IMG/VR virus record: IMGVR_UViG_3300025018_000138
Location: 1-64,000 of that record
Source of the DNA: a virus
Taxonomy: Duplodnaviria > Caudoviricetes
Direction: 5' to 3' (one strand)
Length of the DNA: 64,000 bases
The notes under the pieces are model-generated. The model searched no databases. It saw only the letters and a program-made list of their open reading frames with translations, and had not been told where the DNA came from. Each line of letters starts with the position of its first letter. The first letter of the stretch is position 1. Positions 23,124 through 44,124 of the stretch are shown here, one piece after another. The translations under genes were made by a program, and so were the position numbers.

Positions 23124-23200
23124 TACCCACGACAAGATTCGAATCTTGTATGTATCCATTACACTTTCGACACGTTCGTAGCGTGAGGTGATACGTGGGC
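23124..23200 (-). tRNA. Non-canonical tRNA-Arg(ACG)-like gene, copy 1 (anticodon arm precedes D-like arm)
   Basis: GCCCACG/CGTGGGT acceptor; CACG-CTACGAA-CGTG anticodon arm; then GTGT-AATGGAT-ACAT; T arm ACAAG-ATTCGAAT-CTTGT. Confidence 0.75.
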
Positions 23201-23201
23201 A

Positions 23202-23237
23202 TATGTTTTTATCACCATTCCTCGTCCAATCGAGTCT
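23202..23237 (-). repeat. 36-bp exact repeat, copy 1 (copy 2 at 24464-24499)
   Basis: Minus strand AGACTCGATTGGACGAGGAATGGTGATAAAAACATA is identical at both sites. Confidence 0.9.
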
Positions 23238-23258
23238 AAAACTATGACATTTGATAAA

Positions 23259-23585
23259 TTATCTAAATGTAATAGTTTTAGTTTCAATTGGACTTCCATC
23301 GGAATTCTTTTCAACAATGTTTAATTCTCTTTCCATTTCCCATAAAAGTTCTTCCATTTTAAGTTGTAACTGCTGTACCTTGTTGTAATCAATTTGTCTT
23401 GATGGTGTCATTTTATTTTGTGTTTGTTTAACACAATTTGGACTTGCACCTGATAACAATGCAATTGATAGCAGTGTTCTGAAATTTGAATGTTCACTTC
23501 CAATACCTCTATCATTTGATAATGATATTGATAAGTTTACTTTTTGTTTTTTAACTTCTATTTTGTCAAGAGAAACGGCTTTCAT
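23259..23585 (-). CDS. Hypothetical protein between the duplicated tRNA-Arg(ACG)-like genes
   Basis: 108-aa ORF preceded by promoter at 23627-23655. Confidence 0.6.
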   Translation of the reverse strand: MKAVSLDKIEVKKQKVNLSISLSNDRGIGSEHSNFRTLLSIALLSGASPNCVKQTQNKMTPSRQIDYNKVQQLQLKMEELLWEMERELNIVEKNSDGSPIETKTITFR

Positions 23586-23626
23586 ATTTTTAATCCTTTG
23601 TGTGTTTGGTTACTTACTACATCACT

Positions 23627-23655
23627 AATATACAAACAAAAACATCAAAAGTCAA
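23627..23655 (-). promoter_or_regulatory. Promoter TTGACT-N17-TATATT
   Basis: Consensus match with 17-nt spacer. Confidence 0.65.
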
Positions 23656-23682
23656 CCCTTTTTATTAAAATTTTAAAAAATG

Positions 23683-23759
23683 TACCCACGACAAGATTCG
23701 AATCTTGTATGTATCCATTACACTTTCGACACGTTCGTAGCGTGAGGTGATACATGGGC
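23683..23759 (-). tRNA. Non-canonical tRNA-Arg(ACG)-like gene, copy 2
   Basis: Identical to copy 1 except C6>T, which gives a T-G pair in the acceptor stem. Confidence 0.75.
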
Positions 23760-24056
23760 ATATTAATTATTTTGTATCTGCATCTAATTGTTTTACTAAT
23801 TTGTAAAAAGTATCTTTATTAATTCCATGTGTTAACATTATCAATGCAGTATATTCATGTTTGTTGTACATATATTTATTATCAACAGCAAGTGTAGTAT
23901 TATTATGCTGTGTTTGTACTGATTGTATTAATGGATTTTCTATGTTAAATATTGTTTTCATATAGTGAATTATTAGTTGATTAAAAAAGAAACATATCAA
24001 ATTACTGCTTTACCTATCAATGATTAATATCAAGGTTCTGTACTTTCTTCTTATTT

Positions 24057-24177
24057 CGTTGCGTATTTAACGCCTACGACTTATAGATTTCCTCCGAGTG
24101 CACCTTCCTATATTTGCGCAGTAGGCGATGCTCTTACGGTCAGCACTATTAAAGTCTTGGCAAGCTACTCCAAGTCA
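24057..24177 (-). ncRNA. Candidate pseudoknotted ncRNA downstream of tRNA-Arg(TCT)
   Basis: GC-richer non-coding stretch; GACTTTAATAG/CTATAAGTC crosses CGCCTAC/GTAGGCG; extra hairpins CTTGG/CCAAG and TGCT/AGCA. Confidence 0.45.
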
Positions 24178-24197
24178 TAATAAGATATGTTTAACTG

Positions 24198-24269
24198 TAC
24201 TCAGTATTGGAATCGAACCAATATTAAAGGCTTAGAAGTCCCTTGTACTATCCATTGTACGAACTGAGC
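24198..24269 (-). tRNA. tRNA-Arg(TCT)
   Basis: GCTCAGT/ACTGAGT acceptor, loop CTTCTAA, T loop TTCGATT. Confidence 0.9.
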
Positions 24270-24341
24270 ATAAAAAGCAGTAACATAATATCATCACGAC
24301 ATGATGTTACTTATTCCTAATGATATAGGAATATAATCGAG

Positions 24342-24427
24342 CGGAAAGCACCATAGTTGAAATGGATGGCTTTGACACCACAATCTGTTTAGCAAACAGT
24401 TACAAGCACCTACTTGTTTTACTTTCC
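24342..24427 (-). tRNA. tRNA-Ser(GCT), atypical T arm
   Basis: GGAAAGT/GCTTTCC, loop TTGCTAA, long variable arm, T stem closes with T-A. Confidence 0.8.
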
Positions 24428-24463
24428 AATTAAAAACAGAAAGTCATTGGAAACTTTCATACC

Positions 24464-24499
24464 TATGTTTTTATCACCATTCCTCGTCCAATCGAGTCT
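24464..24499 (-). repeat. 36-bp exact repeat, copy 2
   Basis: Identical to 23202-23237. Confidence 0.9.
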
Positions 24500-24752
24500 T
24501 ATTTTAATAATGATAAATTATATTCATTTAGATATTGTTCAACATATTTTTTATCAAGTTTGATATTAACACTGACAATATGACCCGATGAATTATGTTT
24601 GTATCTATTAAATAATTCATCTGATTCTATATCGTGAAAAACATCAATAAATTCAAAATCCACATCATGTTGTTTCTTACTTTTATATGCAAGAAATTCT
24701 TTATATTCATCGACTGTTATATATGGCATAGTATTCCAAAAGTGATAATTTG

Positions 24753-24827
24753 TACATCATATCAGATTCGAACTGATACTACCAAGTTTCTAAGACTTGT
24801 GACTCCTACCGATTGGTCTAATGATGC
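24753..24827 (-). tRNA. tRNA-Leu(TAG), short variable region
   Basis: GCATCAT/ATGATGT, CAAGT-CTTAGAA-ACTTG, T loop TTCGAAT. Confidence 0.9.
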
Positions 24828-24832
24828 AAGTG

Positions 24833-24906
24833 TACTCTTGGACAGATTCGAACTGTCATTCAACAAATTTTAAGTCTGTTGGCGTTACCATTTAGCCTAC
24901 AAGAGC
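24833..24906 (-). tRNA. tRNA-Leu(TAA), short variable region
   Basis: GCTCTTG/CAAGAGT, ACAGA-CTTAAAA-TTTGT, T loop TTCGAAT. Confidence 0.9.
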
Positions 24907-25021
24907 ATTAAAGCGCTTATCACGAATCTCACGACATGATGATAAGCTTTCCATAAGATACTGAATATGTTTTAATATACATATGTTTTATTCTAATGTC
25001 AATATATCAACGAACTTTTTG

Positions 25022-25105
25022 AGGAAGATGTGGGATTTGAACCCACGGGACAAGATGCCCTTTAGTTTTCAGGACTAACGCAATAATCCACTCTGCCAAT
25101 CTTCC
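25022..25105 (-). tRNA. tRNA-Ser(TGA)
   Basis: GGAAGAT/ATCTTCC, TTAGT-CCTGAAA-ACTAA, long variable arm. Confidence 0.92.
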
Positions 25106-25343
25106 TTATTAAATACCATCGCCATCTAACATGTTAAGACGAACAGTTTCATCTTCACCGATTAGATAAATTCTATTTATGAATTCACCATTTTCATCCG
25201 TTTTACCATTCCAACCTTCTGGGTGTGAATGAATTTCAACACAATATTCCCAACATAATGTTTGGACTTTACTTATAAATTCTTTCATTTTAGGTGATGT
25301 GTTATTTTTCATATGTATTTGTGTTTGTGTTATGTTTTCAATG

Positions 25344-25415
25344 TTGCCCGAACAAGATTCGAACTTGTACACCATAATTCAAAGTTATGTTTCCTGCCAA
25401 TTAGAATATCGAGCA
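25344..25415 (-). tRNA. tRNA-Gln(TTG)
   Basis: TGCTCGA/TCGGGCA, CATAA-CTTTGAA-TTATG. Confidence 0.92.
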
Positions 25416-25428
25416 ATGTATTTGTATG

Positions 25429-25503
25429 TAGCGTAGGGGGGATTTGAACCCCCAGTCTCCTGTTCCCAAAACAGGCGGAATAACCGAATTATCCTACTAC
25501 ACT
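25429..25503 (-). tRNA. tRNA-Pro(TGG)
   Basis: AGTGTAG/CTACGCT, CCTGT-TTTGGGA-ACAGG, GGGGG-TTCAAAT-CCCCC. Confidence 0.92.
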
Positions 25504-25545: not shown

Positions 25546-25581
25546 AAAAAAAGTCATGCACCTTTTCGAGATACATGACTT
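25546..25581 (-). terminator. Intrinsic terminator of leader A
   Basis: AAGTCATGTATC-TCGAAAAG-GTGCATGACTT followed by a U-run. Confidence 0.8.
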
Positions 25582-25612
25582 AAAATCTATTTAAAGTATA
25601 CACATATCTCTC

Positions 25613-25681
25613 TCAGCACAACAACGGTTGTGAATGTCTACGTAGACTTAAAGATGATAATATGTATGTTTTGTTTTCCAT
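25613..25681 (-). CDS. Putative leader peptide A, MENKTYILSSLSLRRHSQPLLC
   Basis: 22-codon ORF between a promoter-like tataat and the terminator, upstream of the Pro/Gln/Ser/Leu/Arg tRNA array. Confidence 0.7.
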   Translation of the reverse strand: MENKTYILSSLSLRRHSQPLLC

Positions 25682-26489
25682 GAATAGTAATTATAGTATT
25701 TTTTTATTTAAATCAATTTTTTCTTAAAAAAAATTAAAAATCTTTTTGGATGTCAATGTAATCGTCTCTATCCACATCAAGCAAGTCTTCTTCAAACTCA
25801 CGATTTAGAAAGGATTTAAACCTTTCTACTAAAGCTTTTTTAGTTGCTTTAACAGCATCTTCTTCCGCATTTACAAAATCAAAGGAATCGGGGATTGATG
25901 TTGTAGTTTCGATATTGGCAGAGTCAACTGTTTTAATAGTATCTTTTACTTTTAAAAGACCTTTTGCAGTCCATGTAATTTCAAATTTTGCTGATTTAAT
26001 CATAGTTTTTTTGTAATTTAGGGGATTGTGTTTTATTTTTGAATAGCAGGTGCAATTTGTATTGCTTCGATTAATTGTTCTAAGAATTTTTCATCAAATA
26101 CATCTTTAAGAGTAGTGATTCCTAATTTTTCTAAAATGTAAAATTCCATATGCGATGCCAATGCAGAATCTACAATTTGATTTAACAAATGTGCATTTTC
26201 TTGTGTAGGTTGATATCCTAACAGTGATGCTTTACGCATTAACGTTGCAACAACAATCTGTCTGATGTCATTAAACTCTTGCTTCATTTTAGGAATAGGA
26301 GCAAGTTTTGAGGATGGTTGGGTAATGGAAGATTCTTCAACTGTATCTATATCTGTATCTGTATCTGTATCATCGTCCGAAATGACGAGAGGAATTTGGT
26401 TTTCGGATACATCTTCGTTGATAGAATCTTCGTTGATAGAATCTAGGTCTAGTAATTTCATGTGTAAGTTTTTAAGTGTTTATAAAAGT

Positions 26490-36556: not shown

Positions 36557-38230
36557 TTAAATAACAATCGCTTTAATATCGTTGAGTACTGCTTTTGGGT
36601 CAAACTCAACTTTTTTAATCAGTTCATAGATATCTTGTGTATATCCTTCGAGAGAAAACACACGTGGGTGTTTACTATTAAACATTTCTGTTGGATAACC
36701 ACAAACATTTATACTATAAACATAGGTATTACCATTCAGTTTTTCATATTCTTTAAAAGAATTTATTACCGAATCTTTACCTTGCATATCACTAATGATA
36801 AATACTCTATCATATCGTCCTTTTAATGATGGAAAGATAGTATCAAACGCAGTACCATAACCAACAGACCCTTGTTTTGATGCAATTACTTTTTTAATAG
36901 TATTTACAGAATCCAAAGGATTTATATTAATAGGTTGAGTATAGTTTGCAAAATGATATACATCTGCATTTGTAGCTTTCGCTAAAGTTGATGCAACCAA
37001 TGATGCTTTTTCGATTGCTGATTTACTACCTTGTTTTTTATTTGCTAAAGTAATCAAACTTGTCATAGAACCTGAGCTATCTAATACTACAGCAGTTTTA
37101 CCTGTGAAGTAATCTTCTAAATTTGGTATTGATAATTCATATGCTTTATTTAATGCAGTTAATATTGAACCTAAATCACTTGGGCTATGTTCTTGTAACA
37201 GAAACTCCAATGCCAAATCTATTTGGTGTGGAAACACTAATGATTTTTTGATAAATTCTGGTTCAATTAGTAAAGCAGATACTTTTTCTTTTAATGTACT
37301 ATGTCCAAGTTTAATGATATTGTTTAAGTTTCTTAACAATGCCAAGTACCCAATTTTTTTAGTATCAATTAGCTCTACAAAATTTTCACCCTTTAAATCA
37401 TCCAATTCAACTTTAGCTTGCTCAACACTTAATTCACCTGATGCCACTTTTGCAGAAACATCTTGACCCGATTTGGTGTTTTTATCTTCAACAGTATTGA
37501 ACTGTTTTAATAAACCTAACGTTAATGCAAACAATGTTGGGATAGTTACTTCTCCATCATCACTAATATTTCTTGTTAGTTTATGTGCTTGTTCTTCATA
37601 TAATACATGCCCTTTGACTGCTTTAAGTAATTTAGCTTTAGGTACAGATACTACTCCTTGAATTTCGGTTTCCCGTGGGTGTACTAACTTGACAATATTC
37701 AATAAAGAAATACTAGAAGTTTTCAATTGGTATTTAGCCAATTGGTATTTATCAGCATTTTCAATCACAGATTTGAATCCACGTTTGATAGCATTTGATA
37801 ATTTCTTACCGTTATTTAATGCCATATATGCACCTGCGATTTCCATCATATCATCTAAACGATATACAACTCCACCGCGATTTTCACCACGAACACGTTT
37901 AGTGAAGAAATGAGTTCCTAATTCGGTACCACTAAGATATCTAGCTAATACTGCTGATGCAAAATGTGTTGTTGCACGTTGTCCTACGACTGAACGTACA
38001 TAAACAATTGCTTTGGCTACCAATTCTTTATCACCAATTTTATCAATTAATGATAATATTCGTGCTTCTCTTGTTTCACTTGTTTCATAAAATGTATTAT
38101 CTACACCTGTAGCAAGAATTCCTACTAATTCTACGATTGGGTCTTTTGCAAAACCGTTTCCGTTTTCATATGTAGTTACATTTGGTTCTGCTTTAGTAGC
38201 AGATACTTGGTGTGAGTTATATTTTCCCAT
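36557..38230 (-). CDS. rsr: TROVE-domain Ro60/Rsr RNA-binding protein with C-terminal vWA domain
   Basis: TFYET, YQLAKY, YLALLRNLNNI, VVLDSSGSM MIDAS, FIISDMQ. Confidence 0.9.
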   Translation of the reverse strand: MGKYNSHQVSATKAEPNVTTYENGNGFAKDPIVELVGILATGVDNTFYETSETREARILSLIDKIGDKELVAKAIVYVRSVVGQRATTHFASAVLARYLSGTELGTHFFTKRVRGENRGGVVYRLDDMMEIAGAYMALNNGKKLSNAIKRGFKSVIENADKYQLAKYQLKTSSISLLNIVKLVHPRETEIQGVVSVPKAKLLKAVKGHVLYEEQAHKLTRNISDDGEVTIPTLFALTLGLLKQFNTVEDKNTKSGQDVSAKVASGELSVEQAKVELDDLKGENFVELIDTKKIGYLALLRNLNNIIKLGHSTLKEKVSALLIEPEFIKKSLVFPHQIDLALEFLLQEHSPSDLGSILTALNKAYELSIPNLEDYFTGKTAVVLDSSGSMTSLITLANKKQGSKSAIEKASLVASTLAKATNADVYHFANYTQPININPLDSVNTIKKVIASKQGSVGYGTAFDTIFPSLKGRYDRVFIISDMQGKDSVINSFKEYEKLNGNTYVYSINVCGYPTEMFNSKHPRVFSLEGYTQDIYELIKKVEFDPKAVLNDIKAIVI

Positions 38231-38394: not shown

Positions 38395-38555
38395 TGGAGA
38401 ATTTTGTGTAACAGTTTTACAGGTTCATCCCTCTGCTTTTTTTTATAATGTATATTTATAATTTGATACCTTTGCGGTGTCTACAATTATAAACAGTTGA
38501 TTTTTAATCATTGTTTTGTTTTTTGTTTTACGAAGTACCTGTTATACCGCTACCA
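38395..38555 (-). ncRNA. Y-RNA-like ncRNA 1 (no tRNA module; internal hairpin with GCAAA loop)
   Basis: 5' TGGTAGCGGTATAACAGGTACTTCGTA ... ACCTGTAAAACTGTTACACAAAATTCTCCA; family motif; nearest RNA upstream of Ro60. Confidence 0.65.
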
Positions 38556-38569
38556 AAAAAAAATAAAAT

Positions 38570-38642
38570 TTTCATCAAAAGGATTTGAGCCTTTATTTTA
38601 TCTCCGTAGAAGGGAGTTGTTCTACCATTGAACTATGATGAA
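38570..38642 (-). tRNA. Atypical tRNA-Arg(TCT)-like gene
   Basis: TTCATCA/TGATGAA, CTCC-CTTCTAC-GGAG, T loop CTCAAAT instead of TTC. Confidence 0.6.
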
Positions 38643-38647
38643 AATTG

Positions 38648-38720
38648 TACTCCTACAAGGAATCGAACCTTGATTTTTCTCCGTAGAAGGGAGATATTTT
38701 ACCATTAAAATATAAGGAAA
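38648..38720 (-). tRNA. Atypical tRNA-Arg(TCT)-like gene, weak acceptor stem
   Basis: TCTCC-CTTCTAC-GGAGA, CAAGG-TTCGATT-CCTTG; mismatched acceptor. Confidence 0.55.
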
Positions 38721-38725
38721 TATTG

Positions 38726-38798
38726 TACGTCTGATGGGGTTCGAACCCATGACTTATAGTTTAAAAGACTATTACTCTACCAACTGAGTTACAGACGT
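38726..38798 (-). tRNA. tRNA-Lys(TTT)
   Basis: ACGTCTG/CAGACGT, ATAGT-CTTTTAA-ACTAT. Confidence 0.93.
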
Positions 38799-38809
38799 AT
38801 ATTTTATTG

Positions 38810-38880
38810 TAGGAGTACAAGTAATCGAAACTTGATATATTGGATGTAAACCAATCGCTTTACCATTAAGCTATACTCCC
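38810..38880 (-). tRNA. tRNA-Val(TAC), T53-A61
   Basis: GGGAGTA/TACTCCT, ATTGG-TTTACAT-CCAAT, CAAGT-TTCGATT-ACTTG. Confidence 0.88.
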
Positions 38881-39064
38881 AAGTCGAAAACTCAGAACCA
38901 CATATTCTGAGTTTTCATGTAGTATTTATTCGATTTGATTTAATTGTATATTTTTCATCTTAGATTATTTATGTGATAATTGACCAAGAGTCTAAGATTA
39001 GTATTGATAAATTTTTTTTGATATATTTTTTGACATATATTCTTATTTATTTTATCTACTAAGT

Positions 39065-39300
39065 ATAAATCTGAGCCATTCTATTTACTTGGAATAGATT
39101 ACTTCGTCAGAAAGAAGTATCACCAAAATGCTTATATACCAATCGCATATGGTTTAAAGATTAACTCATGTGTTTATGCAGAAACCATGTGCATCTTTTG
39201 GCACATGTAGAGTTGTGATTTCAGTCACTCTAAAATCTGAAATTTCATCTGTATGCTTTCTTAAATACTAGTCACTGAAGACCATCGATACTATGTGTTC
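39065..39300 (-). ncRNA. Candidate multi-hairpin ncRNA
   Basis: No ORF of 60 aa or more; hairpins TAGAGT/ACTCTA, CATGTGC/GCACATG, TACTTC/GAAGTA, CTATT/AATAG. Confidence 0.4.
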
Positions 39301-39328
39301 ACGATTTTAATAATACAAATTACTTTTG

Positions 39329-39400
39329 CACTACGGGGGAATTTCGAAATCCCATGACAAGTTTTGGAGACCTGCATATTAGCCTTTATATGACCGCAGT
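39329..39400 (-). tRNA. tRNA-Trp(CCA), atypical T-stem closure
   Basis: ACTGCGG/CCGTAGT, CAGGT-CTCCAAA-ACTTG, GGGAT-TTCGAAA-TTCCC. Confidence 0.85.
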
Positions 39401-39445
39401 ATAAATGATACTTTTAGTATAATCAAAACATATCAGTATCCCACA

Positions 39446-39597
39446 TGAACTGTTTTTCATTTACAAGGAGTAGCAATTTACTACACATCTACCTTTTTAG
39501 TACATTAACGTGTACTACTTCGGAACAGTCCATAACGTTGATGTACAAAACGCTAACTCTTATCGTAAGTCAGAAACGCCATTTTAGCTATAGTTCA
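39446..39597 (-). ncRNA. Candidate multibranch ncRNA
   Basis: Closing TGAACT/AGTTCA; internal CTGACT/AGTTAG, AGTACA/TGTACT, GTAG/CTAC hairpins. Confidence 0.35.
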
Positions 39598-39616
39598 AAT
39601 GGTAACACATTGGATG

Positions 39617-39688
39617 TATCGCATACGAGAATCGAACTCGTGTCTCTACCTTGAAAGGGTAATGACTTAACCATTTGTCCAATGCGAC
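39617..39688 (-). tRNA. tRNA-Glu(TTC)
   Basis: GTCGCAT/ATGCGAT, TTACC-CTTTCAA-GGTAG. Confidence 0.92.
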
Positions 39689-39699
39689 ATATAAAAATA

Positions 39700-39826
39700 T
39701 AAAGAAATATCAAAACAGAATTTTTAGCGCTCTACCATTGAGCTACATGTCCCCATAAGGGACATGGTTGGACTCGAACCAACAACCACTCGTTTCAATA
39801 CGATGAAACTGTTTTTGTCACTATTA
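39700..39826 (-). ncRNA. yrlA: Y-RNA-like ncRNA 2, YrlA-type (permuted tRNA module)
   Basis: Order: stem, T arm GTTGG-TTCGAGT-CCAAC, loop-closed acceptor CATGTCCC/GGGACATG, D arm GCTC-AATGGTA-GAGC, stem; matches published YrlA topology; near the Ro60 gene. Confidence 0.85.
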
Positions 39827-39835
39827 TATTTTTTG

Positions 39836-39907
39836 CTCCCCAAGTAGGACTCGAACCTACAACCTATTGGTTAACAGCCAATTACTCTGCCATTGAGTTA
39901 TTGAGGA
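39836..39907 (-). tRNA. tRNA-Asn(GTT)
   Basis: TCCTCAA/TTGGGGA, ATTGG-CTGTTAA-CCAAT. Confidence 0.93.
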
Positions 39908-39916
39908 ATATATATG

Positions 39917-39989
39917 CGATGTTGATGGGATTCAAACCCACATAATCTTCGCTGACAACGAAGTGCATTAGTCATTATGCTACAACATC
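39917..39989 (-). tRNA. tRNA-Asp(GTC), T loop TTTGAAT
   Basis: GATGTTG/CAACATC, CTTCG-TTGTCAG-CGAAG. Confidence 0.88.
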
Positions 39990-40625
39990 ATTATGTTCAT
40001 GTTTTTCGTAGAATTTTATCCATTTTCTTATAGAATTATCTGAAACTCCATATTTTCTACCTGTAGCACTAAATCCTAATGATTTTGTGTCTTGTATTAA
40101 TATTTCATATGGTGGTCTGTTTCTTTTTCTATCTTTTTTTAATATTTCAATATTTATTTTTTTTTCTTTGAATGGGTTATTATTTTCATAATCATTTAAA
40201 TAATTTATTTTAAATTTTTCTTCATTTACTCTAATTGCTGTTTTATTTTCAATATCAGATGTAGATAAGAAAAAAATACCACCGCTTTTTACTACAATAA
40301 TAATATAATCTATTTTATTTTTATCAAAATATTTTCGTGTATTATTATATTTATTACCACCGCTAGTTGCAAGTGTTACTATCCAATTATTATTTTTATA
40401 AACACTTGTTGATTTGACTTGAACTTTTAGTAAGCAATTATCTTTTTCAATAATAAAATCATACGATTGATTTTCGTTTAATGGTTTAGATACTGTGTAT
40501 CCTTCTTTTATTAAGAAAGCTAAAGCGTATGCTTCACCAACATTACCTTTATCTTTTTGGGTTTTACAATTTTCAAATATATTCATGATATTAATTATAA
40601 TATATTTTATATTTTTGAACCCCAA
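39975..40625 (-). CDS. Free-standing PD-(D/E)XK endonuclease (group I intron-associated type) with C-terminal HTH
   Basis: KGNVGEAYA, QSYDFIIEK, KVQVKS; HTH GVSDNSIRKW. Confidence 0.8.
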   Translation of the reverse strand: MGFKNIKYIIINIMNIFENCKTQKDKGNVGEAYALAFLIKEGYTVSKPLNENQSYDFIIEKDNCLLKVQVKSTSVYKNNNWIVTLATSGGNKYNNTRKYFDKNKIDYIIIVVKSGGIFFLSTSDIENKTAIRVNEEKFKINYLNDYENNNPFKEKKINIEILKKDRKRNRPPYEILIQDTKSLGFSATGRKYGVSDNSIRKWIKFYEKHEHNDVVA

Positions 40626-40647
40626 AAATAAAATAAAATAATTTTTG

Positions 40648-40734
40648 TGCGGTTCGAAAGATTCGAACTTTACGCCACCAACCCCACTTAGTTTTTGACA
40701 ACAGTTTTACAGACTGCCGTGGGGAACGAACCGC
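40648..40734 (-). tRNA. Non-canonical tRNA-Tyr(GTA)-like gene (anticodon arm precedes D-like segment; 8/4 acceptor/T)
   Basis: GCGGTTCG/CGAACCGC, GCAGT-CTGTAAA-ACTGT, then AAC-TAAGTGGG-GTT, T arm AAAG-TTCGAAT-CTTT, A73. Confidence 0.75.
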
Positions 40735-40743
40735 AAATAAAAA

Positions 40744-40887
40744 CAAAGAAATTTATAATCAGTTGACCAACATTTCAACCCCCGTACTAATACTAATTAT
40801 ATTAACATTAGTACGGGGGGCAGGAATTGAACCTACGTTATAGCAAAGCATGATTTTGTACGAAGTATCTGATTTATTACGCTATTG
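40744..40887 (-). ncRNA. Y-RNA-like ncRNA 3, YrlA-type with extended closed acceptor
   Basis: T arm GTAGG-TTCAATT-CCTGC, 13-bp CCCCCGTACTAAT/ATTAGTACGGGGG, D-like TTGA-AATGTTGG-TCAA; family terminal motif. Confidence 0.75.
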
Positions 40888-40893
40888 TTTTTG

Positions 40894-40965
40894 TGCAGGA
40901 TAAGGGATTCGAACCCTTATAGCAAGTGTGGAAAACTTGAAGATTAACCATTATCGTAATCCTGC
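40894..40965 (-). tRNA. tRNA-Gly(TCC)
   Basis: GCAGGAT/ATCCTGC, CAAGT-TTTCCAC-ACTTG. Confidence 0.88.
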
Positions 40966-40974
40966 AAAGAATTA

Positions 40975-41055
40975 ATCAAAGAAATTTTAAATGAGCGTGT
41001 TTGTAGATGTTATGTTGTAGATAATTTACGATGAAACTCATTAAGTGCTATTGAT
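40975..41055 (-). ncRNA. Y-RNA-like ncRNA 4, minimal form
   Basis: ATCAATAGCACTTAATGAGTTTCATCGTA ... CTCATTTAAAATTTCTTTGAT; family motif with a short unstructured loop. Confidence 0.65.
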
Positions 41056-41061
41056 TAAGTG

Positions 41062-41136
41062 TACCCATAGATGGATTTGAACCATCGCATAACTGCGTAT
41101 CAGACAGTTGCCTTAACCAAGCTTGGCTATATGGGC
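41062..41136 (-). tRNA. tRNA-Ile(GAT)
   Basis: GCCCATA/TATGGGT, ACTGT-CTGATAC-GCAGT. Confidence 0.92.
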
Positions 41137-41148
41137 ATAATAAAATAA

Positions 41149-41270
41149 AAGGAGAAATATAAAAAGTGTGTTCCTCTTACGAGGTCGAGTGGAATTGAAC
41201 CACTGAAGTTTATTTTCAAGATAAATGCCCAACCATTGAGCTACGATGTAACACTTTTAAACGCTACCTT
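41149..41270 (-). ncRNA. Y-RNA-like ncRNA 5 enclosing unpermuted D, anticodon(TGA) and T arms
   Basis: Family stem AAAAGTGT/ACACTTTT; GCTC-AATGGTT-GGGC; TTTAT-CTTGAAA-ATAAA; AGTGG-TTCAATT-CCACT; only 3 bp of acceptor, then CCTC-GTAA-GAGG. Confidence 0.7.
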
Positions 41271-41275
41271 TTTTG

Positions 41276-41348
41276 AGCTTTCATTGGGAATCGAACCCAC
41301 TTCCTCGCTTTACAAGAGCGAACATCATCCAATAAATGTTTTGAAAGC
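41276..41348 (-). tRNA. tRNA-Thr(TGT)
   Basis: GCTTTCA/TGAAAGC, TCGCT-CTTGTAA-AGCGA. Confidence 0.9.
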
Positions 41349-41752
41349 TATTTTCTAGTTGTTCTAGAAGATTTTCTATTATTTATATTTTTGTACGTTT
41401 TGGTTAAAGAGTGACAATTCGGACATAATAATCTTAGATTTTCTCGCAAATTATTTTTAGCATCTCCATCTATATGGTCAATCTCTAATGGTATATTACC
41501 CGTAAATTCATTTATTTGTGACCAACCACATAATGAACATTTATTATCATTTTCTTCTAATAAAAATTTTCTTATCCAATTAGGAATGGTCAATCCATTA
41601 CCACGTAGATAATTTTTACCATTTAACCACATATTAATACGTTGATTCATTTGAAATTCTTGTTGACATTTATTATTACAAAAAATGTTATTATTAACAA
41701 TTTCATTATTACAAAATTTACAAGTTTTTTCCTTTTTTTCTCTTTTTCTCAT
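41348..41752 (-). CDS. Free-standing HNH endonuclease
   Basis: CSLCGW, LEIDHIDGD, NLRLLCPNCHS. Confidence 0.9.
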   Translation of the reverse strand: MRKREKKEKTCKFCNNEIVNNNIFCNNKCQQEFQMNQRINMWLNGKNYLRGNGLTIPNWIRKFLLEENDNKCSLCGWSQINEFTGNIPLEIDHIDGDAKNNLRENLRLLCPNCHSLTKTYKNINNRKSSRTTRK

Positions 41753-41813
41753 CGGTCAACCATTTTTATATATAATTATATGGTTTTCCAAAAAAATAAA
41801 AATTATATTATTG

Positions 41814-41888
41814 GGTGTCAGGTGGGACTTGAACCCACAAGGTACTAGAGTCACAATCTAGCGCATCTACCAATTCTGCTACAGACAC
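41814..41888 (-). tRNA. tRNA-His(GTG)
   Basis: CTAGA-TTGTGAC-TCTAG, C73; genomic -1 base is T, not G. Confidence 0.88.
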
Positions 41889-42008
41889 ATGTAAGTATTT
41901 AATAAATATATTAAGGATTCTGATACATACATAATTCAACACGTTACTACAATCCTTTTCACAGAGTTAGCAATGTATACATTACAGTATTTATTAGTGA
42001 TACTTTAG

Positions 42009-42080
42009 TGAAGTCTATAGGAATCGAACCTATACTCATGGGGCTTCAACCCATCGCTCTACCAATTGAGCTAAGACTCC
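42009..42080 (-). tRNA. tRNA-Phe(GAA)
   Basis: GGAGTCT/AGACTTC, ATGGG-TTGAAGC-CCCAT. Confidence 0.92.
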
Positions 42081-42083
42081 AAG

Positions 42084-42178
42084 TGCTTATGGCAAGAATC
42101 TCACTAGGAGTCTTGCACGAACTATTAATCGTTCTCATACCTTGTTAGGTATTTAGTGTCTAATTCCACCACATAAGC
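42084..42178 (-). pseudogene. tRNA-Leu-derived RNA with remodelled D, anticodon and T loops
   Basis: Intact acceptor GCTTATG/CATAAGC and variable arm; D loop lacks GG; 6-nt anticodon loop; T loop replaced by CTCCTAGTGAGAT. Confidence 0.6.
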
Positions 42179-42181
42179 TTG

Positions 42182-42254
42182 TGGAGACTGAGATAATCGA
42201 AATCTCCCAAACGGTATGCAAAACCGTTTCGCCAACCTTGGTACATTAGCCCCC
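42182..42254 (-). tRNA. tRNA-Ala(TGC), T53-A61
   Basis: GGGGGCT/AGTCTCC with G3-U70; loop TTTGCAT; GAGAT-TTCGATT-ATCTC. Confidence 0.88.
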
Positions 42255-42353
42255 TTTTTCTCAAGAGTTTACCAACCATTTTGGTTTTACTCTCGATTGC
42301 AAATAGTAAAAAAATACGTCAATGAACTGTTAGAAAGGTAAGAAGTTTTTTTA

Positions 42354-42509
42354 TTAAAAGTCAACAGATAATCTGCATTTATTTTTATTTGCTTCTTTTT
42401 TCTTGTCTACTACAACTTTAGGAGTAAATCTCCCATCGAAATAACCGACAGATTTTAGTTGTTCTCTAAAACCTTTTGTCTTCTTGTATGTAGTAGTATT
42501 TGTTTTCAT
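42354..42509 (-). CDS. Small basic protein (51 aa) at the head of tRNA array B
   Basis: MKTNTTTYKKTKGFREQLKSVGYFDGRFTPKVVVDKKKKQIKNKCRLSVDF; below the ORF-track cutoff. Confidence 0.6.
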   Translation of the reverse strand: MKTNTTTYKKTKGFREQLKSVGYFDGRFTPKVVVDKKKEANKNKCRLSVDF

Positions 42510-42555
42510 GATTATAAGATATGAAGTTATTTATTAAATATCAAGTGTTATAAAT

Positions 42556-42590
42556 AAAAAAGTCCAAATTTTTTTAGGGTTTGGACTTTT
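42556..42590 (-). terminator. Intrinsic terminator of leader B
   Basis: AAAAGTCCAAA-CCCTAAAAAAA-TTTGGACTTTT followed by further U residues. Confidence 0.8.
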
Positions 42591-42625
42591 ACAACTAATA
42601 ATCTGCGATACCTCAACCAAACCTA

Positions 42626-42709
42626 TTAGATATTCACCCCCTTCACAAAACCATAATGGTTGGTTGAATCGGTGTTATTATCCCAAATAAATGTTGTAGT
42701 TGTTTTCAT
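42626..42709 (-). CDS. Putative leader peptide B, MKTTTTFIWDNNTDSTNHYGFVKGVNI
   Basis: 27-codon ORF after the same aaaaaaatactataattacta context as leader A, followed by an antiterminator-compatible segment and a terminator. Confidence 0.7.
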   Translation of the reverse strand: MKTTTTFIWDNNTDSTNHYGFVKGVNI

Positions 42710-42718
42710 GATTAGTAA

Positions 42719-43585
42719 TTATAGTATTTTTTTATTAAAATCAAAAAAATCTTCAAAATTTTCAAAAATAATTTCTTTTTTAATATCATCATATACAATA
42801 AACTCAGTTGGATACATAAATAATGAAGTATCAGACATTATTAATGAAGGATTTAAATAATATGGTGAATGTAATGGGAGACCATGTATATTACTAGTAT
42901 GCCCGAATATTTGTATAATATTCTTATTTGTCGCAGTAGGAACAGTAATTTCTGATGGTCTCAGCCAAAAAATTCCTCCACACGATTTATATCCACCCGA
43001 TATATATCCAATGTCAAATAACGATTTAACTTCCGAATTTCTATTACCACTTGATAATACATATAGATACATATCATTTGTTAATGGTTTTAATGTTTCA
43101 TTAATATCATCGATAGTAATTTCTTCAAATGGTATATGTTTAGTATTAGGGAGTTGTTTAAATATATCCCCATCTAATCCTGCATGAGTACATAAAAGAT
43201 TATCGATTGAATGATAAAATTTTAAAATCTTTTTATCCATCATTTTTTCATAATATGGATAAAACGAAAATCCTGCACCTGCACTATACCCAGAACATTG
43301 AAATGGATTTTCCACATGTGGTTTAATCATATATTGTAAATCGTGATTACCGATTAGATATGTCATCTTTTCGGGTTCATATTCATACATCATAGTTTTT
43401 AATAACTCTTGTTGCTTTTTTCTACCAAACTCAGGGTTATGATTATTCCCCCAAGTCACTTGTCTATTATCTACATAATCGCCTAAAAATACTACTTTAT
43501 AGTCATCAGTTGATTTTATAAATTTATTAACTTTGTTAAATAAATTTATATTACCGTGTAAATCACCAAATATTATATGTTTCAT
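42719..43585 (-). CDS. Calcineurin-like metallophosphoesterase
   Basis: GDLHG, FLGDYVD, LIGNHD, THAG, IFGHT. Confidence 0.9.
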   Translation of the reverse strand: MKHIIFGDLHGNINLFNKVNKFIKSTDDYKVVFLGDYVDNRQVTWGNNHNPEFGRKKQQELLKTMMYEYEPEKMTYLIGNHDLQYMIKPHVENPFQCSGYSAGAGFSFYPYYEKMMDKKILKFYHSIDNLLCTHAGLDGDIFKQLPNTKHIPFEEITIDDINETLKPLTNDMYLYVLSSGNRNSEVKSLFDIGYISGGYKSCGGIFWLRPSEITVPTATNKNIIQIFGHTSNIHGLPLHSPYYLNPSLIMSDTSLFMYPTEFIVYDDIKKEIIFENFEDFFDFNKKIL

Positions 43586-44124
43586 TATTTTTTACTTATA
43601 TCAGTTTGATAGTATACTTTTCCGTGATGAAAAGTTTCTATATAGTCAATAGCTTTAAATATCAATAGTTTCCTTTCATCTTCGGTTGTTCGGGAAAACA
43701 ATAATACCATATTATCATATATGACAAATTTTTTCATGTAGTTATTAAGTTTACCCAATTTTCTGAGTAAATCTTCTTGTTTACTTACACGCATTCTATC
43801 CAATATTGCATACCGCATGTGTTCTTCAATCATCATCAATACATCACGTTTGATGTTAATTGGTATGAATTTTTTAGCATATTTTAATGATGCTTTTTCA
43901 TGTCCAAATGCAGTAGGAGTTCCATCTTCCTTATATTTCAAAGTATCAATTTTACCAAAATCGTGAAATAATGCCGTGTACAATAGTTCATCGGGTTCAT
44001 TATTTTCTAATGCTTGACCCAATACTAATAGAGTATGGGTTAATACATCACCTTCGGGATGATAATCCTTACGTTGGGGAGTATTCTGTAATTGTTTGAG
44101 TAAGTTTGTTAAGTCCATAATCAA
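43585..44124 (-). CDS. HD-domain protein (related to the HD domain of multifunctional CCA enzymes)
   Basis: HPEGDVLTHT, LFHDFGK, GHE, EHM. Confidence 0.8.
   Translation of the reverse strand: MIMDLTNLLKQLQNTPQRKDYHPEGDVLTHTLLVLGQALENNEPDELLYTALFHDFGKIDTLKYKEDGTPTAFGHEKASLKYAKKFIPINIKRDVLMMIEEHMRYAILDRMRVSKQEDLLRKLGKLNNYMKKFVIYDNMVLLFSRTTEDERKLLIFKAIDYIETFHHGKVYYQTDISKK

What the first reader, a model, noticed from the sequence alone, without database searches (positions are those of the whole stretch)
23124..44124. Integrated phage translation-rescue island: codon-sensing leaders, rearranged tRNAs, Ro60/Y-RNA family and tRNA-end enzymes
Seen: one 21-kb minus-strand block combines tRNA arrays covering all 20 amino acids (Tyr only via a non-canonical gene), two attenuator-like leaders whose codons match their arrays, arm-swapped tRNAs, Ro60 with five Y-like RNAs, a CCA enzyme, a second NTase, an HD protein and a phosphoesterase. 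Known: hosts use tRNA-cleaving defences (PrrC, RloC, PARIS AriB, retron PtuAB) and phage tRNAs can rescue them; Rsr/YrlA is linked to RtcB tRNA repair in Salmonella. Inference: this is an inducible system that senses tRNA loss and supplies nuclease-resistant substitutes, decoys and repair functions.
Basis: partly seen in the sequence, partly recalled or inferred. Interest (0 to 1): 0.9.

Follow-up and report, generated by a model that had tools for sequence, protein, structure and literature searches.

The report
Attenuator-gated phage tRNA operons with Ro60
A large uncultured phage places its tRNA genes, a Ro60 protein and five partner small RNAs behind tiny "test" genes written in the amino acids those tRNAs carry and followed by a switchable transcription stop, so it probably makes them when ribosomes run short of tRNA; the wider 21-kb "rescue island" is only loosely held together.

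Summary
The window is part of a 74.8-kb viral contig (about 36% complete). Nothing shows a discrete or integrated island.

The core is two same-strand tRNA operons:
- Each opens with a near-identical promoter and start cassette, a short ORF (27 and 22 codons), a hairpin plus T-run terminator, and an antiterminator strand just after the stop codon.
- Leader residues mirror the tRNAs behind them (A versus B, Fisher 4e-5).
- In 67 related Ro60 loci the same layout recurs. Leaders covary with array content (0 of 20,000 permutations), and 10 of the 15 ORFs of 35-55 aa holding all 20 amino acids sit before large arrays.
- In six relative lineages only two terminators lie between the leader and the Ro60 end: the attenuator and one just after Ro60.

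Five RNAs share a covarying bulged terminal helix and a TCGTA motif; 80 such elements occur in 29 loci. Two Arg(ACG) genes and one Tyr(GTA) gene have non-cloverleaf layouts.

The HD, phosphoesterase and second NTase genes are not co-conserved with Ro60. Decoy, nuclease-resistance and repair roles are untested.

This scan found such leaders, rewired tRNAs and handle-tagged RNAs earlier in other phages. I found no published account.

The parts
42718..42744 (-). Promoter-like cassette of leader B (-35 TTGATT 42739-42744, -10 TATAAT 42718-42723). The ATG lies 8 nt after the -10, so the mRNA is probably leaderless.
   Evidence: Read from sequence. The cassette occurs three times (25675-25746, 42703-42774 at 79%, 42503-42574 at 63%). 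Promoter function is inferred.
42626..42709 (-). Leader B, a 27-codon ORF. It uses K, T, F, I, W, D, N, H, Y, G, V and one S; it has no L, R, Q, P, A, E or C.
   Evidence: 24 of its 26 residues fall in the ARAGORN-called isotype set of array B, 25 of 26 if the Tyr-like gene is counted. Its composition is reciprocal to leader A (Fisher 4e-5).
42616..42624 (-). Antiterminator strand B, 2-10 nt after the stop; it pairs with the 5' arm of the terminator.
   Evidence: RNAduplex gives -10.3 kcal/mol, z -1.6, p 0.06. No switch is seen in the equilibrium model.
42552..42588 (-). Terminator B: 9-bp stem, 11-nt loop, T-run.
   Evidence: -7.8 kcal/mol. The consensus scanner missed it, probably because its 11-nt loop exceeds the scanner's 3-8 nt limit.
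42354..42509 (-). 51-codon ORF with a third, weaker copy of the promoter/start cassette and no terminator. It is either a further leader or a small protein; unresolved.
   Evidence: No Pfam match and no relatives. By my count 44 of 50 residues fall in the array-B set, a modest enrichment.
38569..42254 (-). Array B, 14 canonical tRNAs: Ala, Phe, His, Thr, Ile, Gly, Asp, Asn, Glu, Trp, Val, Lys, Arg, Arg.
   Evidence: ARAGORN and Rfam.
40648..40734 (-). Non-canonical Tyr(GTA)-like gene. A CCCCAC/GTGGGG helix encloses the anticodon arm; there is no D hairpin.
   Evidence: The anticodon loop is identical to tRNA-Tyr of relatives. No tRNA finder calls it. Leader B has one TAT codon.
41151..41268 (-). 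Y-like RNA E1: the handle plus an unpermuted tRNA-like body (D, anticodon-like and T arms) and no acceptor stem.
   Evidence: Rfam tRNA partial match 41185-41246; ARAGORN at -ps85 calls 'Ser tga'; handle seen.
40978..41052 (-). Y-like RNA E2: the handle with an AU-rich insert.
40745..40886 (-). Y-like RNA E3: the handle, then T arm, a 19-bp hairpin and a degenerate D arm (YrlA-like order).
   Evidence: z -4.5. No Rfam YrlA match.
39700..39825 (-). Y-like RNA E4: YrlA-type (T arm, hairpin, D arm inside a closing stem).
   Evidence: Rfam YrlA 43.3 bits, E 6e-9, below the gathering score of 69. RNAalifold with 6 relatives: 10 of 17 pairs show compensatory changes.
38396..38554 (-). Y-like RNA E5: the handle with a long AU-rich insert, directly upstream of Ro60.
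   Evidence: z -4.4.
41348..41752 (-). HNH homing-endonuclease-like ORF inside array B.
   Evidence: Pfam HNH_3/HNH.
39975..40625 (-). PD-(D/E)XK endonuclease ORF inside array B.
   Evidence: Pfam PDDEXK_5, E 2.5e-21.
36557..38230 (-). Ro60/TROVE protein, 557 aa.
   Evidence: Pfam TROVE 31.6 bits (cut-off 23). PDB TROVE proteins 9kop/9l5y, E 1.5e-19. 67 viral relatives at 43-52% identity.
35339..36497 (-). Distal part of operon B: tRNA-Met, a 233-aa HExxH-like ORF (35661-36362), then tRNA-Cys and three CAT-anticodon tRNAs.
35305..35335 (-). Strong terminator-like hairpin (13 bp plus T-run); proposed end of operon B.
33384..34439 (-). CCA-adding enzyme head/neck, 351 aa, without an HD domain.
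   Evidence: Pfam PolyA_pol E 5e-27; PHROG tRNA nucleotidyltransferase E 7e-49; NCBIfam CCA model 183.7 bits, below its cut-off of 290.
43585..44124 (-). Stand-alone HD protein, like the HD domain of the multifunctional CCA addition/repair enzyme.
   Evidence: NCBIfam NF008137 positions 210-324, E 5e-11; PHROG 2244 positions 208-334.
42719..43585 (-). Calcineurin-like metallophosphoesterase.
   Evidence: Pfam Metallophos E 4e-10. No relatives found in viral contigs.
32788..33429 (+). Weak second nucleotidyltransferase, on the opposite strand.
   Evidence: PF01743 E 9e-4 (below cut-off); PHROG 1614 E 1e-7.
25690..25716 (-). Promoter-like cassette of leader A (-35 25711-25716, -10 25690-25695).
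25613..25681 (-). Leader A, a 22-codon ORF. From codon 8 on it is written almost wholly in L, S, R, Q and P.
   Evidence: 13 of 21 residues fall in the array set (p 3e-4). Every one of the 8 anticodons of operon A has a cognate codon (TTA/TTG, CTA, TCA/TCT, AGT, CGT, AGA, CAA, CCG).
25593..25611 (-). Antiterminator strand A, 2-20 nt after the stop.
   Evidence: RNAduplex -12.3 kcal/mol, p 0.04. Modelled terminator probability falls to 0.15 when the ribosome A site is on codons 13-14.
25551..25581 (-). Terminator A: 13-bp stem plus T-run.
   Evidence: (-15.4 kcal/mol).
24197..25503 (-). Array A: Pro, Gln, Ser(TGA), Leu(TAA), Leu(TAG), Ser(GCT, relaxed threshold only, 24341-24427) and Arg(TCT), with two small ORFs of no known family.
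23124..23200 (-). Rewired Arg(ACG) gene, copy 1.
23683..23759 (-). Rewired Arg(ACG) gene, copy 2. Within the 96-nt repeat the only difference is a C/T in the acceptor stem that keeps the pair (G-C versus G-U).

Best explanation
The stretch is the tRNA region of a large, low-GC, uncultured phage. It is not a self-contained island. Its functional core is two leader-peptide transcription attenuators, each gating a tRNA operon.

Proposed mechanism:
- Each unit starts with a sigma-70-like promoter placed 8 nt before an ATG, so the message is probably leaderless.
- The short ORF is written in the amino acids, and the codons, that the downstream tRNAs read.
- If the ribosome runs to the stop codon, it covers the RNA strand lying just after the stop. 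The terminator hairpin then forms and transcription ends.
- If the ribosome stalls earlier because a matching charged tRNA is scarce, that strand is free. It pairs with the 5' arm of the terminator, and RNA polymerase reads on into the tRNA genes.
- The new tRNAs relieve the stall, which gives negative feedback.

The two operons:
- Operon B (about 42,745 to 35,305) carries 14 canonical tRNAs, a Tyr-like gene, five Y-like RNAs, two homing-endonuclease ORFs, Ro60, and then five more tRNAs. Ro60 and its RNAs would therefore be induced together with the tRNAs.
- Operon A (about 25,716 to 23,124) carries Pro, Gln, Ser, Leu, Leu, Ser and Arg tRNAs and two rewired Arg(ACG) genes.

Shown: the sequence architecture, the statistics, and conservation and covariation in relatives. 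Inferred: translation of the leaders, stall-dependent read-through, co-transcription, and any role for Ro60, the Y RNAs or the rewired tRNAs.
For: (1) Window leaders. Their compositions are reciprocal and match their own arrays (Fisher 4e-5). Leader A holds a cognate codon for all 8 anticodons of its operon, including AGT for Ser(GCT) and CGT for Arg(ACG).

(2) Relatives.
- In 8 partial-array pairs the leader-by-array enrichment matrix is diagonal-dominant, and 0 of 20,000 permutations reach the observed sum.
- Of 1,770 ORFs of 35-55 aa, 15 contain all 20 amino acids. Ten of those 15 sit 59-561 nt upstream of arrays of 11-25 tRNAs.

(3) Architecture.
- All 15 candidate leaders are followed within 20-37 nt by a hairpin plus T-run.
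- In 14 of 15 the best duplex with the terminator's 5' arm lies between -32 and +20 of the stop (median z -2.6; 11 of 15 at p<=0.05).

(4) Homologous leaders. Their in-ORF indels are mostly multiples of 3 (6, 3 and 3 nt; one 1-nt gap falls in the poorly aligned 3' end). Their antiterminator strand changes together with both terminator arms (CCAGGGC / CGGGGC / CCAGGA).

(5) Cassette. The promoter/start cassette is repeated.

(6) Operon.
- All tRNAs between the leader and Ro60 are on one strand.
- In L002, L009, L011/16, L015, L022 and L026 the only terminator-like sites are the attenuator and one 4-58 nt after Ro60.
- In the window the next strong terminator after leader B is at 35335-35305.
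Against:
- Equilibrium folding predicts a switch for leader A and for 4-7 relatives, but not for leader B or for about half the relatives. If the switch is real, it must be kinetic.
- Leader B lacks Ala, Glu and Arg codons although those tRNAs are in its array.
- Leader B's antiterminator is only 7 bp (p 0.06) and its terminator is weak.
- Promoter-like sites lie inside or after the attenuators (42544-42516 before the 51-codon ORF; 25002-24974 inside array A). Part of each array may therefore be made regardless. The promoter scan has no discriminating power here (140 found against 138 expected).
- There is no Shine-Dalgarno sequence; translation rests on a presumed leaderless start.
- The host is unknown.
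Confidence: 0.68

Rival explanations
1. The block is one co-evolved, defence-triggered rescue island: loss of host tRNAs to anticodon nucleases is sensed, and the phage then supplies nuclease-resistant tRNAs (the rewired Arg and Tyr genes), decoys (Y-like RNAs with anticodon-like loops on Ro60) and end-repair enzymes (CCA, HD, phosphoesterase, NTase).
For: - The leaders give a plausible sensor.
- Ro60 and the Y RNAs lie in the gated operon.
- The HD protein resembles the repair domain of the multifunctional CCA enzyme.
- tRNA-targeting defences, and rescue by phage tRNAs, are documented (PMC11555353, PMC12409363).
- Septu cuts the variable loop of tRNA-Tyr (PMC13096335, abstract). The Tyr genes of this clade are unusual exactly in the D/variable region.
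Against: - HD, Metallophos, NTase2 and the 233-aa ORF do not recur near Ro60 in 67 relatives. The Metallophos protein has no relatives in viral contigs.
- HD and Metallophos lie upstream of the leader B promoter, and the CCA gene lies beyond the operon B terminator, so they are outside the gated units.
- About 7 kb of unrelated genes separate the operons.
- No RtcB or Rnl1 was found; the only ligase domain is 22 kb away.
- Nothing tests nuclease resistance or decoy action.
Confidence: 0.2
2. The attenuator architecture is real, but the signal is general decoding speed rather than tRNA destruction by host defences. That speed could fall through amino-acid starvation, codon-usage mismatch between an AT-rich phage and its host, or decay of host tRNA late in infection. 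The leaders would then be homeostats or timers that tune tRNA supply.
For: - A leader-peptide attenuator reads charged-tRNA availability from whatever cause; this is established for trp, his, thr and ilv.
- In many relatives the leaders carry all 20 amino acids. That fits global sensing better than a response to one nuclease.
- The cyanobacterial extra tRNA array is induced by any ribosome-targeting antibiotic (PMC8421152).
Against: No evidence here separates this from the defence reading. Splitting the sensors by tRNA subset in the window suggests that subset-specific shortage matters.
Confidence: 0.35
3. The short ORFs are ordinary small genes or chance ORFs with their own terminators. The arrays are transcribed constitutively from their own promoters, and the composition match is a coincidence or a by-product of local sequence bias.
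For: - Promoter-like hexamers follow both terminators.
- The homologous leaders are conserved at the peptide level in one subgroup.
- Equilibrium folding often keeps the terminator.
Against: - Leader/array covariation across lineages whose arrays differ in content (0 of 20,000 permutations).
- The excess of all-20-amino-acid ORFs exactly upstream of full arrays.
- The consistent position and covariation of the antiterminator strand.
- Conservation extends to third codon positions, which points to constraint on the RNA.
Confidence: 0.08

Closest known systems
Leader-peptide transcription attenuators of amino-acid operons (trp, his, leu, pheA; multivalent thr and ilvGMEDA)
   Same: A short translated ORF enriched in the codons to be sensed. 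An intrinsic terminator before the controlled genes. An alternative antiterminator pairing whose 5' strand is masked by a ribosome that reaches the end of the ORF.
   Different: - The controlled genes are tRNAs (plus Ro60 and Y-like RNAs), not biosynthetic enzymes.
- The leaders sense 5 to 20 different amino acids, usually with one to a few codons each and no long runs.
- The message is probably leaderless.
- The element is in a phage.
- Four full-text searches found no paper describing this.
Inducible extra tRNA array (trn operon / L-array) of Anabaena sp. PCC 7120 (PMC8421152; TrcR repressor, PMC10272220)
   Same: A supernumerary tRNA array that is silent by default and induced when translation is impaired. 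RNA-repair genes (rtcB) are co-regulated with it.
   Different: [quoted passage not shown] Neither paper contains the words 'leader' or 'attenuat'. It is a bacterial megaplasmid, not a phage.
Bacterial and phage Ro60 (Rsr) with YrlA-type Y RNAs (Chen et al. 2014, PMC4201824; Rfam RF02553)
   Same: A TROVE protein with tRNA-mimicking RNAs on the same strand within 4 kb. The core is a T arm, a hairpin and a D arm inside a closing stem. Several RNAs occur per locus. Such RNAs were already reported in 22 phages.
   Different: - Only E4 scores against RF02553, and it stays below the gathering score (43.3 against 69). It lacks the model's inner helix.
- The conserved 5' motif here is TTAC(T/A)TCGY, not the published GNCGAA.
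- The family shares a terminal helix with two bulged pyrimidines.
- It carries interchangeable inserts: the YrlA type, a whole tRNA-like body, a T arm only, or no tRNA part.
- The locus sits inside an attenuator-gated tRNA operon.
Phage tRNA gene regions with homing endonucleases (T4 SegB; T5 tRNA region) and phage tRNAs that evade tRNA-targeting defences (PMC11555353, PMC12409363, PMC13096335)
   Same: Dense same-strand tRNA clusters interrupted by HNH and PD-(D/E)XK endonuclease genes. Phage tRNAs differ from host tRNAs.
   Different: I found no report of leader-peptide control or of a Ro60 module in these systems in the papers retrieved. The non-cloverleaf Arg and Tyr genes go beyond the anticodon-loop changes described there. 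That last comparison rests on the abstracts and my own knowledge.

Membership tests
Leader-peptide transcription attenuator | A short ORF upstream of the controlled genes, on the same strand, with its own start signals | tested here: met
   27- and 22-codon ORFs lie 8 nt after a TATAAT box. The cassette is repeated. 13 further examples occur in relatives.
Leader-peptide transcription attenuator | The ORF is enriched in codons whose decoding reports on the controlled product | tested here: met
   Fisher 4e-5 for A versus B; 0 of 20,000 permutations across 8 pairs. All-20-amino-acid ORFs precede full arrays.
Leader-peptide transcription attenuator | An intrinsic terminator between the ORF and the controlled genes | tested here: met
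   15 of 15 have a hairpin plus T-run 20-37 nt after the stop. Site A was also found by the consensus scanner.
Leader-peptide transcription attenuator | An antiterminator pairing that competes with the terminator and is masked by a ribosome at the end of the ORF | tested here: met
   14 of 15 best duplexes lie at -32..+20 of the stop, median z -2.6. The strand covaries with the terminator arms. An equilibrium switch is seen in only part of the set.
Leader-peptide transcription attenuator | Read-through depends on translation and on stalling | not testable with these tools
Leader-peptide transcription attenuator | The controlled genes are amino-acid biosynthesis genes (the classical class) | tested here: not met
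   The downstream genes are tRNAs, Y-like RNAs and Ro60. It is therefore a variant, not a member of the classical set.
YrlA (Rfam RF02553) | Reaches the family's gathering score | tested here: not met
   E4 scores 43.3 bits against 69. E3 has no match even with lax filters. None was found in 6 relatives at gathering level.
YrlA (Rfam RF02553) | A tRNA-like module (T arm, hairpin, D arm) closed by a stem, within 4 kb of Ro60 on the same strand | tested here: met
   E4 and E3. Seven homologues give 10 of 17 pairs with compensatory changes.
YrlA (Rfam RF02553) | The 5' GNCGAA motif proposed as the Ro60 contact (PMC4201824) | tested here: not met
   The conserved motif here is TTAC(T/A)TCGY or T(A/T)C(A/T)TCGTA.
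Ro60 / TROVE protein | TROVE domain | tested here: met
   PF05731 at 31.6 bits, cut-off 23. PDB TROVE proteins at E 1.5e-19 over residues 293-550.
Ro60 / TROVE protein | Ring of HEAT repeats plus a vWA/MIDAS domain; binding of Y RNA | not tested
   No structure was predicted. Binding cannot be tested here.
Class II CCA-adding enzyme | Pol-beta head domain of the PolyA_pol family | tested here: met
   PF01743 E 5e-27; PHROG 2244 E 7e-49.
Class II CCA-adding enzyme | Reaches NCBIfam's equivalog cut-off for a CCA enzyme | tested here: not met
   NF009814 scores 183.7 bits against 290. The HD domain is encoded separately at 43585-44124.
Canonical cloverleaf tRNA (ARAGORN / RF00005), for Arg(ACG) x2 and Tyr(GTA) | Arms in the order acceptor, D, anticodon, T; recognised by tRNA finders | tested here: not met
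   Not called at default, -ps85 or -ps90. The D arm is absent 5' of the anticodon arm and a D-like segment lies 3' of it.
Canonical cloverleaf tRNA (ARAGORN / RF00005), for Arg(ACG) x2 and Tyr(GTA) | 7-bp acceptor stem, T arm with a TTCGA loop, 7-nt anticodon loop with T33 and a purine at 37, tRNA length | tested here: met
   Aminoacylation and decoding are not testable here.

The most novel reading that the evidence does not exclude
Large phages run a translation-rescue regulon. Multi-amino-acid leader peptides act as direct gauges of the charged-tRNA pool. When host defences or shut-off deplete particular tRNAs, the matching operon is switched on. That operon delivers ordinary tRNAs, tRNAs with a rewired, non-cloverleaf core that escape tRNA-targeting nucleases, and a Ro60 particle loaded with interchangeable tRNA-mimic RNAs that handles or shields damaged tRNA.
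Probability: 0.25. Interest if true: 0.95.

Novelty: new variant of a known kind. Interest (0 to 1): 0.8.

Why it matters
- If the leaders work as proposed, phages regulate tRNA genes by reading the decoding speed of the very codons those tRNAs serve. That would be a feedback loop I found described for no tRNA gene, and a compact natural sensor of the charged-tRNA pool for up to 20 amino acids at once.
- It would explain how large phages afford dozens of tRNA genes, and when those genes matter.
- It would give a regulatory context for phage Ro60 and Y RNAs, whose role is open, by tying them to tRNA shortage.
- The leader's codons also work as an independent annotation of which odd tRNA-like genes the phage counts as tRNAs. 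Here AGT, CGT and TAT point to Ser(GCT), the rewired Arg(ACG) and the Tyr-like gene.
- The window's sigma-70-like promoters make the system directly testable in reporter constructs.

Tried and rejected
- Megablast of the 21 kb against GenBank phages found only one 150-nt match. No cultured close relative exists; the Ro60 of cultured phages is at most 32% identical.
- The Metallophos protein gave no confirmed relatives in viral contigs.
- Rfam at gathering level found no YrlA in six relatives and nothing for E3.
- The sigma-70 promoter scan is uninformative in this AT-rich DNA: 140 sites found against 138 expected.
- The whole-peptide binomial test with a fixed 5-kb downstream tRNA set gave only modest p-values. 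I replaced it with the leader-by-array permutation test.
- Equilibrium folding with a sliding ribosome mask shows switching in only part of the set. I read this as a limit of equilibrium models, not as proof either way.
- The covariance model of the YrlA-type RNAs also hits junctions between adjacent tRNAs (for example 35377-35459). Its weak hits were not counted.
- I considered a third mini-leader before tRNA-Val (a 7-codon ORF over the hairpin near 38890-38925). I rejected it because its residues do not match Val, Lys, Arg, Arg.
- I rejected the 'integrated prophage' reading. The record is a viral contig, and the large ORFs examined on both sides have phage-typical functions: helicases, a chaperonin, DUF932, methyltransferases and TnpB.

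Full report
ORIGIN AND SETTING

The window is the first 64 kb of a 74,815-bp linear IMG/VR virus record that CheckV rates about 36% complete. The phage is therefore probably near 200 kb. GC content is about 27% throughout, and almost all large ORFs in the window lie on the minus strand. The large neighbouring ORFs examined are phage-typical: a Dda-like helicase, an SNF2 helicase, an 865-aa chaperonin-like protein, DUF932, methyltransferases and a TnpB. Nothing marks the 21 kb as an inserted or integrated unit. There is no close cultured relative.

CHECK OF THE OBSERVATION

ARAGORN finds 25 tRNAs, all on the minus strand, in three clusters. They cover 19 amino acids and lack Tyr; Rfam agrees. 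A relaxed threshold adds Ser(GCT) at 24341-24427.

Pfam, PHROGs, NCBIfam and PDB searches confirm the following:
- Ro60/TROVE (36557-38230).
- A CCA-enzyme head domain (33384-34439).
- An HD protein (43585-44124) that matches the HD part of the multifunctional CCA addition/repair enzyme.
- A metallophosphoesterase (42719-43585).
- Two HNH ORFs and one PD-(D/E)XK endonuclease ORF.

The 'second NTase' (32788-33429) is a weak match and lies on the plus strand. Between 26.0 and 32.7 kb lie an NT5C-type nucleotidase, a dNMP kinase, a KTSC protein and unknown ORFs. These have no evident link to translation.

THE LEADERS

Both arrays are preceded by a near-identical cassette (79% over 72 nt). It consists of TTGATT, 15 nt, TATAAT, 8 nt, then an ATG.

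Leader B (window:42626-42709:-) uses K, T, F, I, W, D, N, H, Y, G and V plus one S. Leader A (window:25613-25681:-) is written almost wholly in L, S, R, Q and P from codon 8 onward. These are the isotypes of the arrays behind them, and the two compositions are reciprocal (Fisher 4e-5). Leader A contains a cognate codon for each of the eight anticodons of its operon, including AGT and CGT for the two genes that standard finders miss.

Each ORF is followed by a hairpin plus T-run (25551-25581 and 42552-42588). In both, a strand 2-20 nt after the stop can pair with the terminator's 5' arm.

COMPARATIVE TEST

The Ro60 protein has 67 relatives (43-52% identity) in viral contigs of up to 430 kb. In most of them tRNA arrays lie upstream on the same strand. 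Short ORFs just before those arrays show the same property.
- Where the array covers all isotypes, the ORF of 44-51 codons contains all, or in L015 19 of, the 20 amino acids. Of 1,770 ORFs of 35-55 aa in all loci, 15 contain all 20, and 10 of those 15 sit 59-561 nt before arrays of 11-25 tRNAs.
- Where the array is partial, the ORF is written in that subset. Examples are L004 (C, Q, F, L, P, Y, E) and L026 with its two complementary units.
- An 8 x 8 leader-by-array enrichment matrix is diagonal-dominant, and 0 of 20,000 permutations reach the observed sum. In 7 of 8 pairs every isotype of the array is present in the leader.
- All 15 candidates have a terminator 20-37 nt after the stop.
- In 14 of 15 the best partner of the terminator's 5' arm lies from -32 to +20 of the stop. 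That is where a ribosome finishing the ORF would cover it (median z -2.6).
- Among four homologous leaders the in-ORF indels are mostly multiples of three (6, 3 and 3 nt; one 1-nt gap in the poorly aligned 3' end). The antiterminator strand changes together with both terminator arms.

Equilibrium folding with a sliding ribosome footprint reproduces a switch for leader A (terminator probability 0.96 falling to 0.15 at codons 13-14) and for L003, L004, L028 and L030. It does not do so for leader B or for several others. If the mechanism is real, it is kinetic, as in classical attenuators.

OPERON STRUCTURE

Between the leader and Ro60, all tRNAs are on one strand. In L002, L009, L011/16, L015, L022 and L026 the only terminator-like sites, from the leader to past Ro60, are the attenuator and one 4-58 nt after the Ro60 gene.

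In the window the first strong terminator after leader B is at 35335-35305. That lies beyond Ro60, tRNA-Met, a 233-aa ORF and four more tRNAs. Ro60 and its RNAs are thus most simply read as distal members of the gated tRNA operon. HD and Metallophos lie upstream of the leader B promoter, and the CCA gene lies beyond the terminator, so they are outside it.

Y-LIKE RNAs

E4 (39700-39825) aligns to the tRNA-like core and closing stem of Rfam YrlA but lacks an inner helix. It scores 43.3 bits against a gathering score of 69. Homologues sit just upstream of Ro60 in six relatives, and the alignment shows compensatory changes in 10 of 17 pairs. A model built from them finds further copies.

All five window elements (E1-E5) share three features:
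- a 5' segment of the type RRTAGYG;
- an inner stem followed by T(A/T)C(A/T)TCGTA;
- a 3' TTTCTYY.

In relatives the same module (for example AGTGGTAA ... TTACTTCGY) occurs 80 times in 29 non-redundant loci. For 47 of the 80, the exact Watson-Crick partner of the 5' segment, skipping two bulged pyrimidines, lies downstream. Swapped controls give 6.7 +/- 2.2. At least ten covarying variants exist. Inside the window, GG..AG pairs with CTCC in E1 and E5, and AA..AG pairs with CTTT in E2-E4.

The inserts vary: the YrlA type, a whole tRNA-like body (E1; in relatives ARAGORN calls these Gln or Lys right before Ro60), a T arm only, or none. Binding to Ro60 is inferred from adjacency only. The motif differs from the published GNCGAA.

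NON-CANONICAL tRNAs

Aligned with canonical Arg(ACG) genes of relatives, the two window copies lack the D arm before the anticodon arm. They carry a D-arm-like segment after it. The minimum-energy fold pairs GUAUC before the anticodon arm with GAUAC after it, so the 'D stem' may be built from two strands that enclose the anticodon arm.

The Tyr-like gene has the same topology (CCCCAC/GUGGGG) and the anticodon loop of the clade's tRNA-Tyr. Relatives hold other unrecognised genes with nested or shortened cores, of Ile(GAT/TAT) and Tyr(GTA) type.

Whether any of these is charged and decodes cannot be tested here. The leader codons are indirect support.

MECHANISM AND RIVALS

The best reading is classical ribosome-mediated attenuation applied to tRNA operons (confidence 0.68). 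What the sensor responds to in nature is open. It could be nuclease attack, starvation, codon mismatch or late-infection decay of host tRNA.

The defence-island reading as a whole is weak for three reasons:
- The enzymes are not co-conserved with Ro60.
- They lie outside the gated units.
- No ligase is nearby; PF09414 is at 607-1254, and there is no RtcB or Rnl1.

A lead worth testing is that Septu cleaves the variable loop of tRNA-Tyr (PMC13096335). The Tyr genes of this clade are odd in exactly that region.

COMPARISON AND NOVELTY

Four full-text searches found no description of leader-peptide control of tRNA genes. The nearest case in print is the Anabaena trn array. It is induced by translational stress through a promoter repressor, and neither paper mentions a leader or attenuation. 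Ro60 with YrlA in phages is known (PMC4201824). The handle family with interchangeable inserts, and its place inside a gated tRNA operon, I did not find described.

Earlier notes of this scan report the same three phenomena on other phage DNA: leader attenuators, rewired Arg/Ile tRNAs and handle-tagged tRNA mimics beside Ro60-like proteins. This window is therefore a further instance that combines all three. What I add here is the placement of Ro60 in the gated operon, tested on relatives.

LIMITS

- There are no transcript or ribosome data.
- The host is unknown.
- Promoter assignments are by eye.
- Leader B is the weaker of the two: short antiterminator, weak terminator, and no Ala, Glu or Arg codons.
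- The 51-codon ORF between leader B and the array carries a third, degraded copy of the cassette. It remains unexplained.

Noticed in passing
L002:9491-9917: A GOLLD RNA (Rfam RF02032, 239 bits) lies directly upstream of the Ro60 gene of a relative, inside the same tRNA operon. The same locus has a tmRNA (742-1236) and a group I intron (8387-8586). L015 has a permuted tmRNA (5062-5220).
   Followed up: no
Loci L019, L021, L023, L025, L029, L035, L040, L042, L043, L045, L046, L049, L053, L058, L059, L063-L066: Many relatives carry a tRNA with anticodon CTA (an amber suppressor; ARAGORN labels it 'Pyl') a few kb upstream of Ro60. This hints at TAG recoding in those phages.
   Followed up: no
window 42300-42320; L044, L022, L015, L004, L028, L026, L030, between the terminator and the first tRNA: A recurrent motif of the type TTCATTGACATATTGG lies between the leader terminator and the first tRNA in many loci (window version: CAGTTCATTGACGTATTT). 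It could be a second promoter, a processing site or a protein site.
   Followed up: partly
window 38881-39327 and 39401-39615 (minus strand): Two long non-coding gaps lie inside array B. The 447-nt gap folds better than shuffles (z -2.6) and ends in a 13-bp hairpin just before tRNA-Val. The 215-nt gap has z -1.8. Neither has an Rfam match.
   Followed up: partly
window 23202-23237 and 24464-24499: A perfect 36-nt direct repeat. One copy lies immediately upstream (on the minus strand) of rewired Arg(ACG) copy 1. The other lies after the 76-aa ORF, ahead of Ser(GCT).
   Followed up: no
window 607-1254 (minus strand): A 215-aa ORF with an RNA_ligase (PF09414, Rnl2-type) domain, E 2e-16. It is the only RNA-ligase-like gene found on the contig, 22 kb from the tRNA region.
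   Followed up: partly
window 50055-52652 (minus strand): An 865-aa protein whose C-terminal 440 residues are a Cpn60/TCP-1 chaperonin domain. About 400 residues precede it with no Pfam match.
   Followed up: no
window 17662-18909 (plus strand); 34558-34595: A TnpB (OrfB_IS605 plus Cas12f-like TNB) gene lies in the phage. I did not check that.
   Followed up: no
L028:5214-5281, L053:1070-1139, L067:1919-1986: Short (68-70 nt) tRNA-like genes with a GTA anticodon loop, an acceptor stem and a T arm, but a reduced D region and no long variable arm. ARAGORN does not call them.
   Followed up: partly
window 35661-36362 (minus strand): A 233-aa ORF with an HExxH-type motif (weak Peptidase_M90 match, E 3e-4) is embedded between tRNA-Met and tRNA-Cys, downstream of Ro60. 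It has no relatives in the Ro60 loci.
   Followed up: partly
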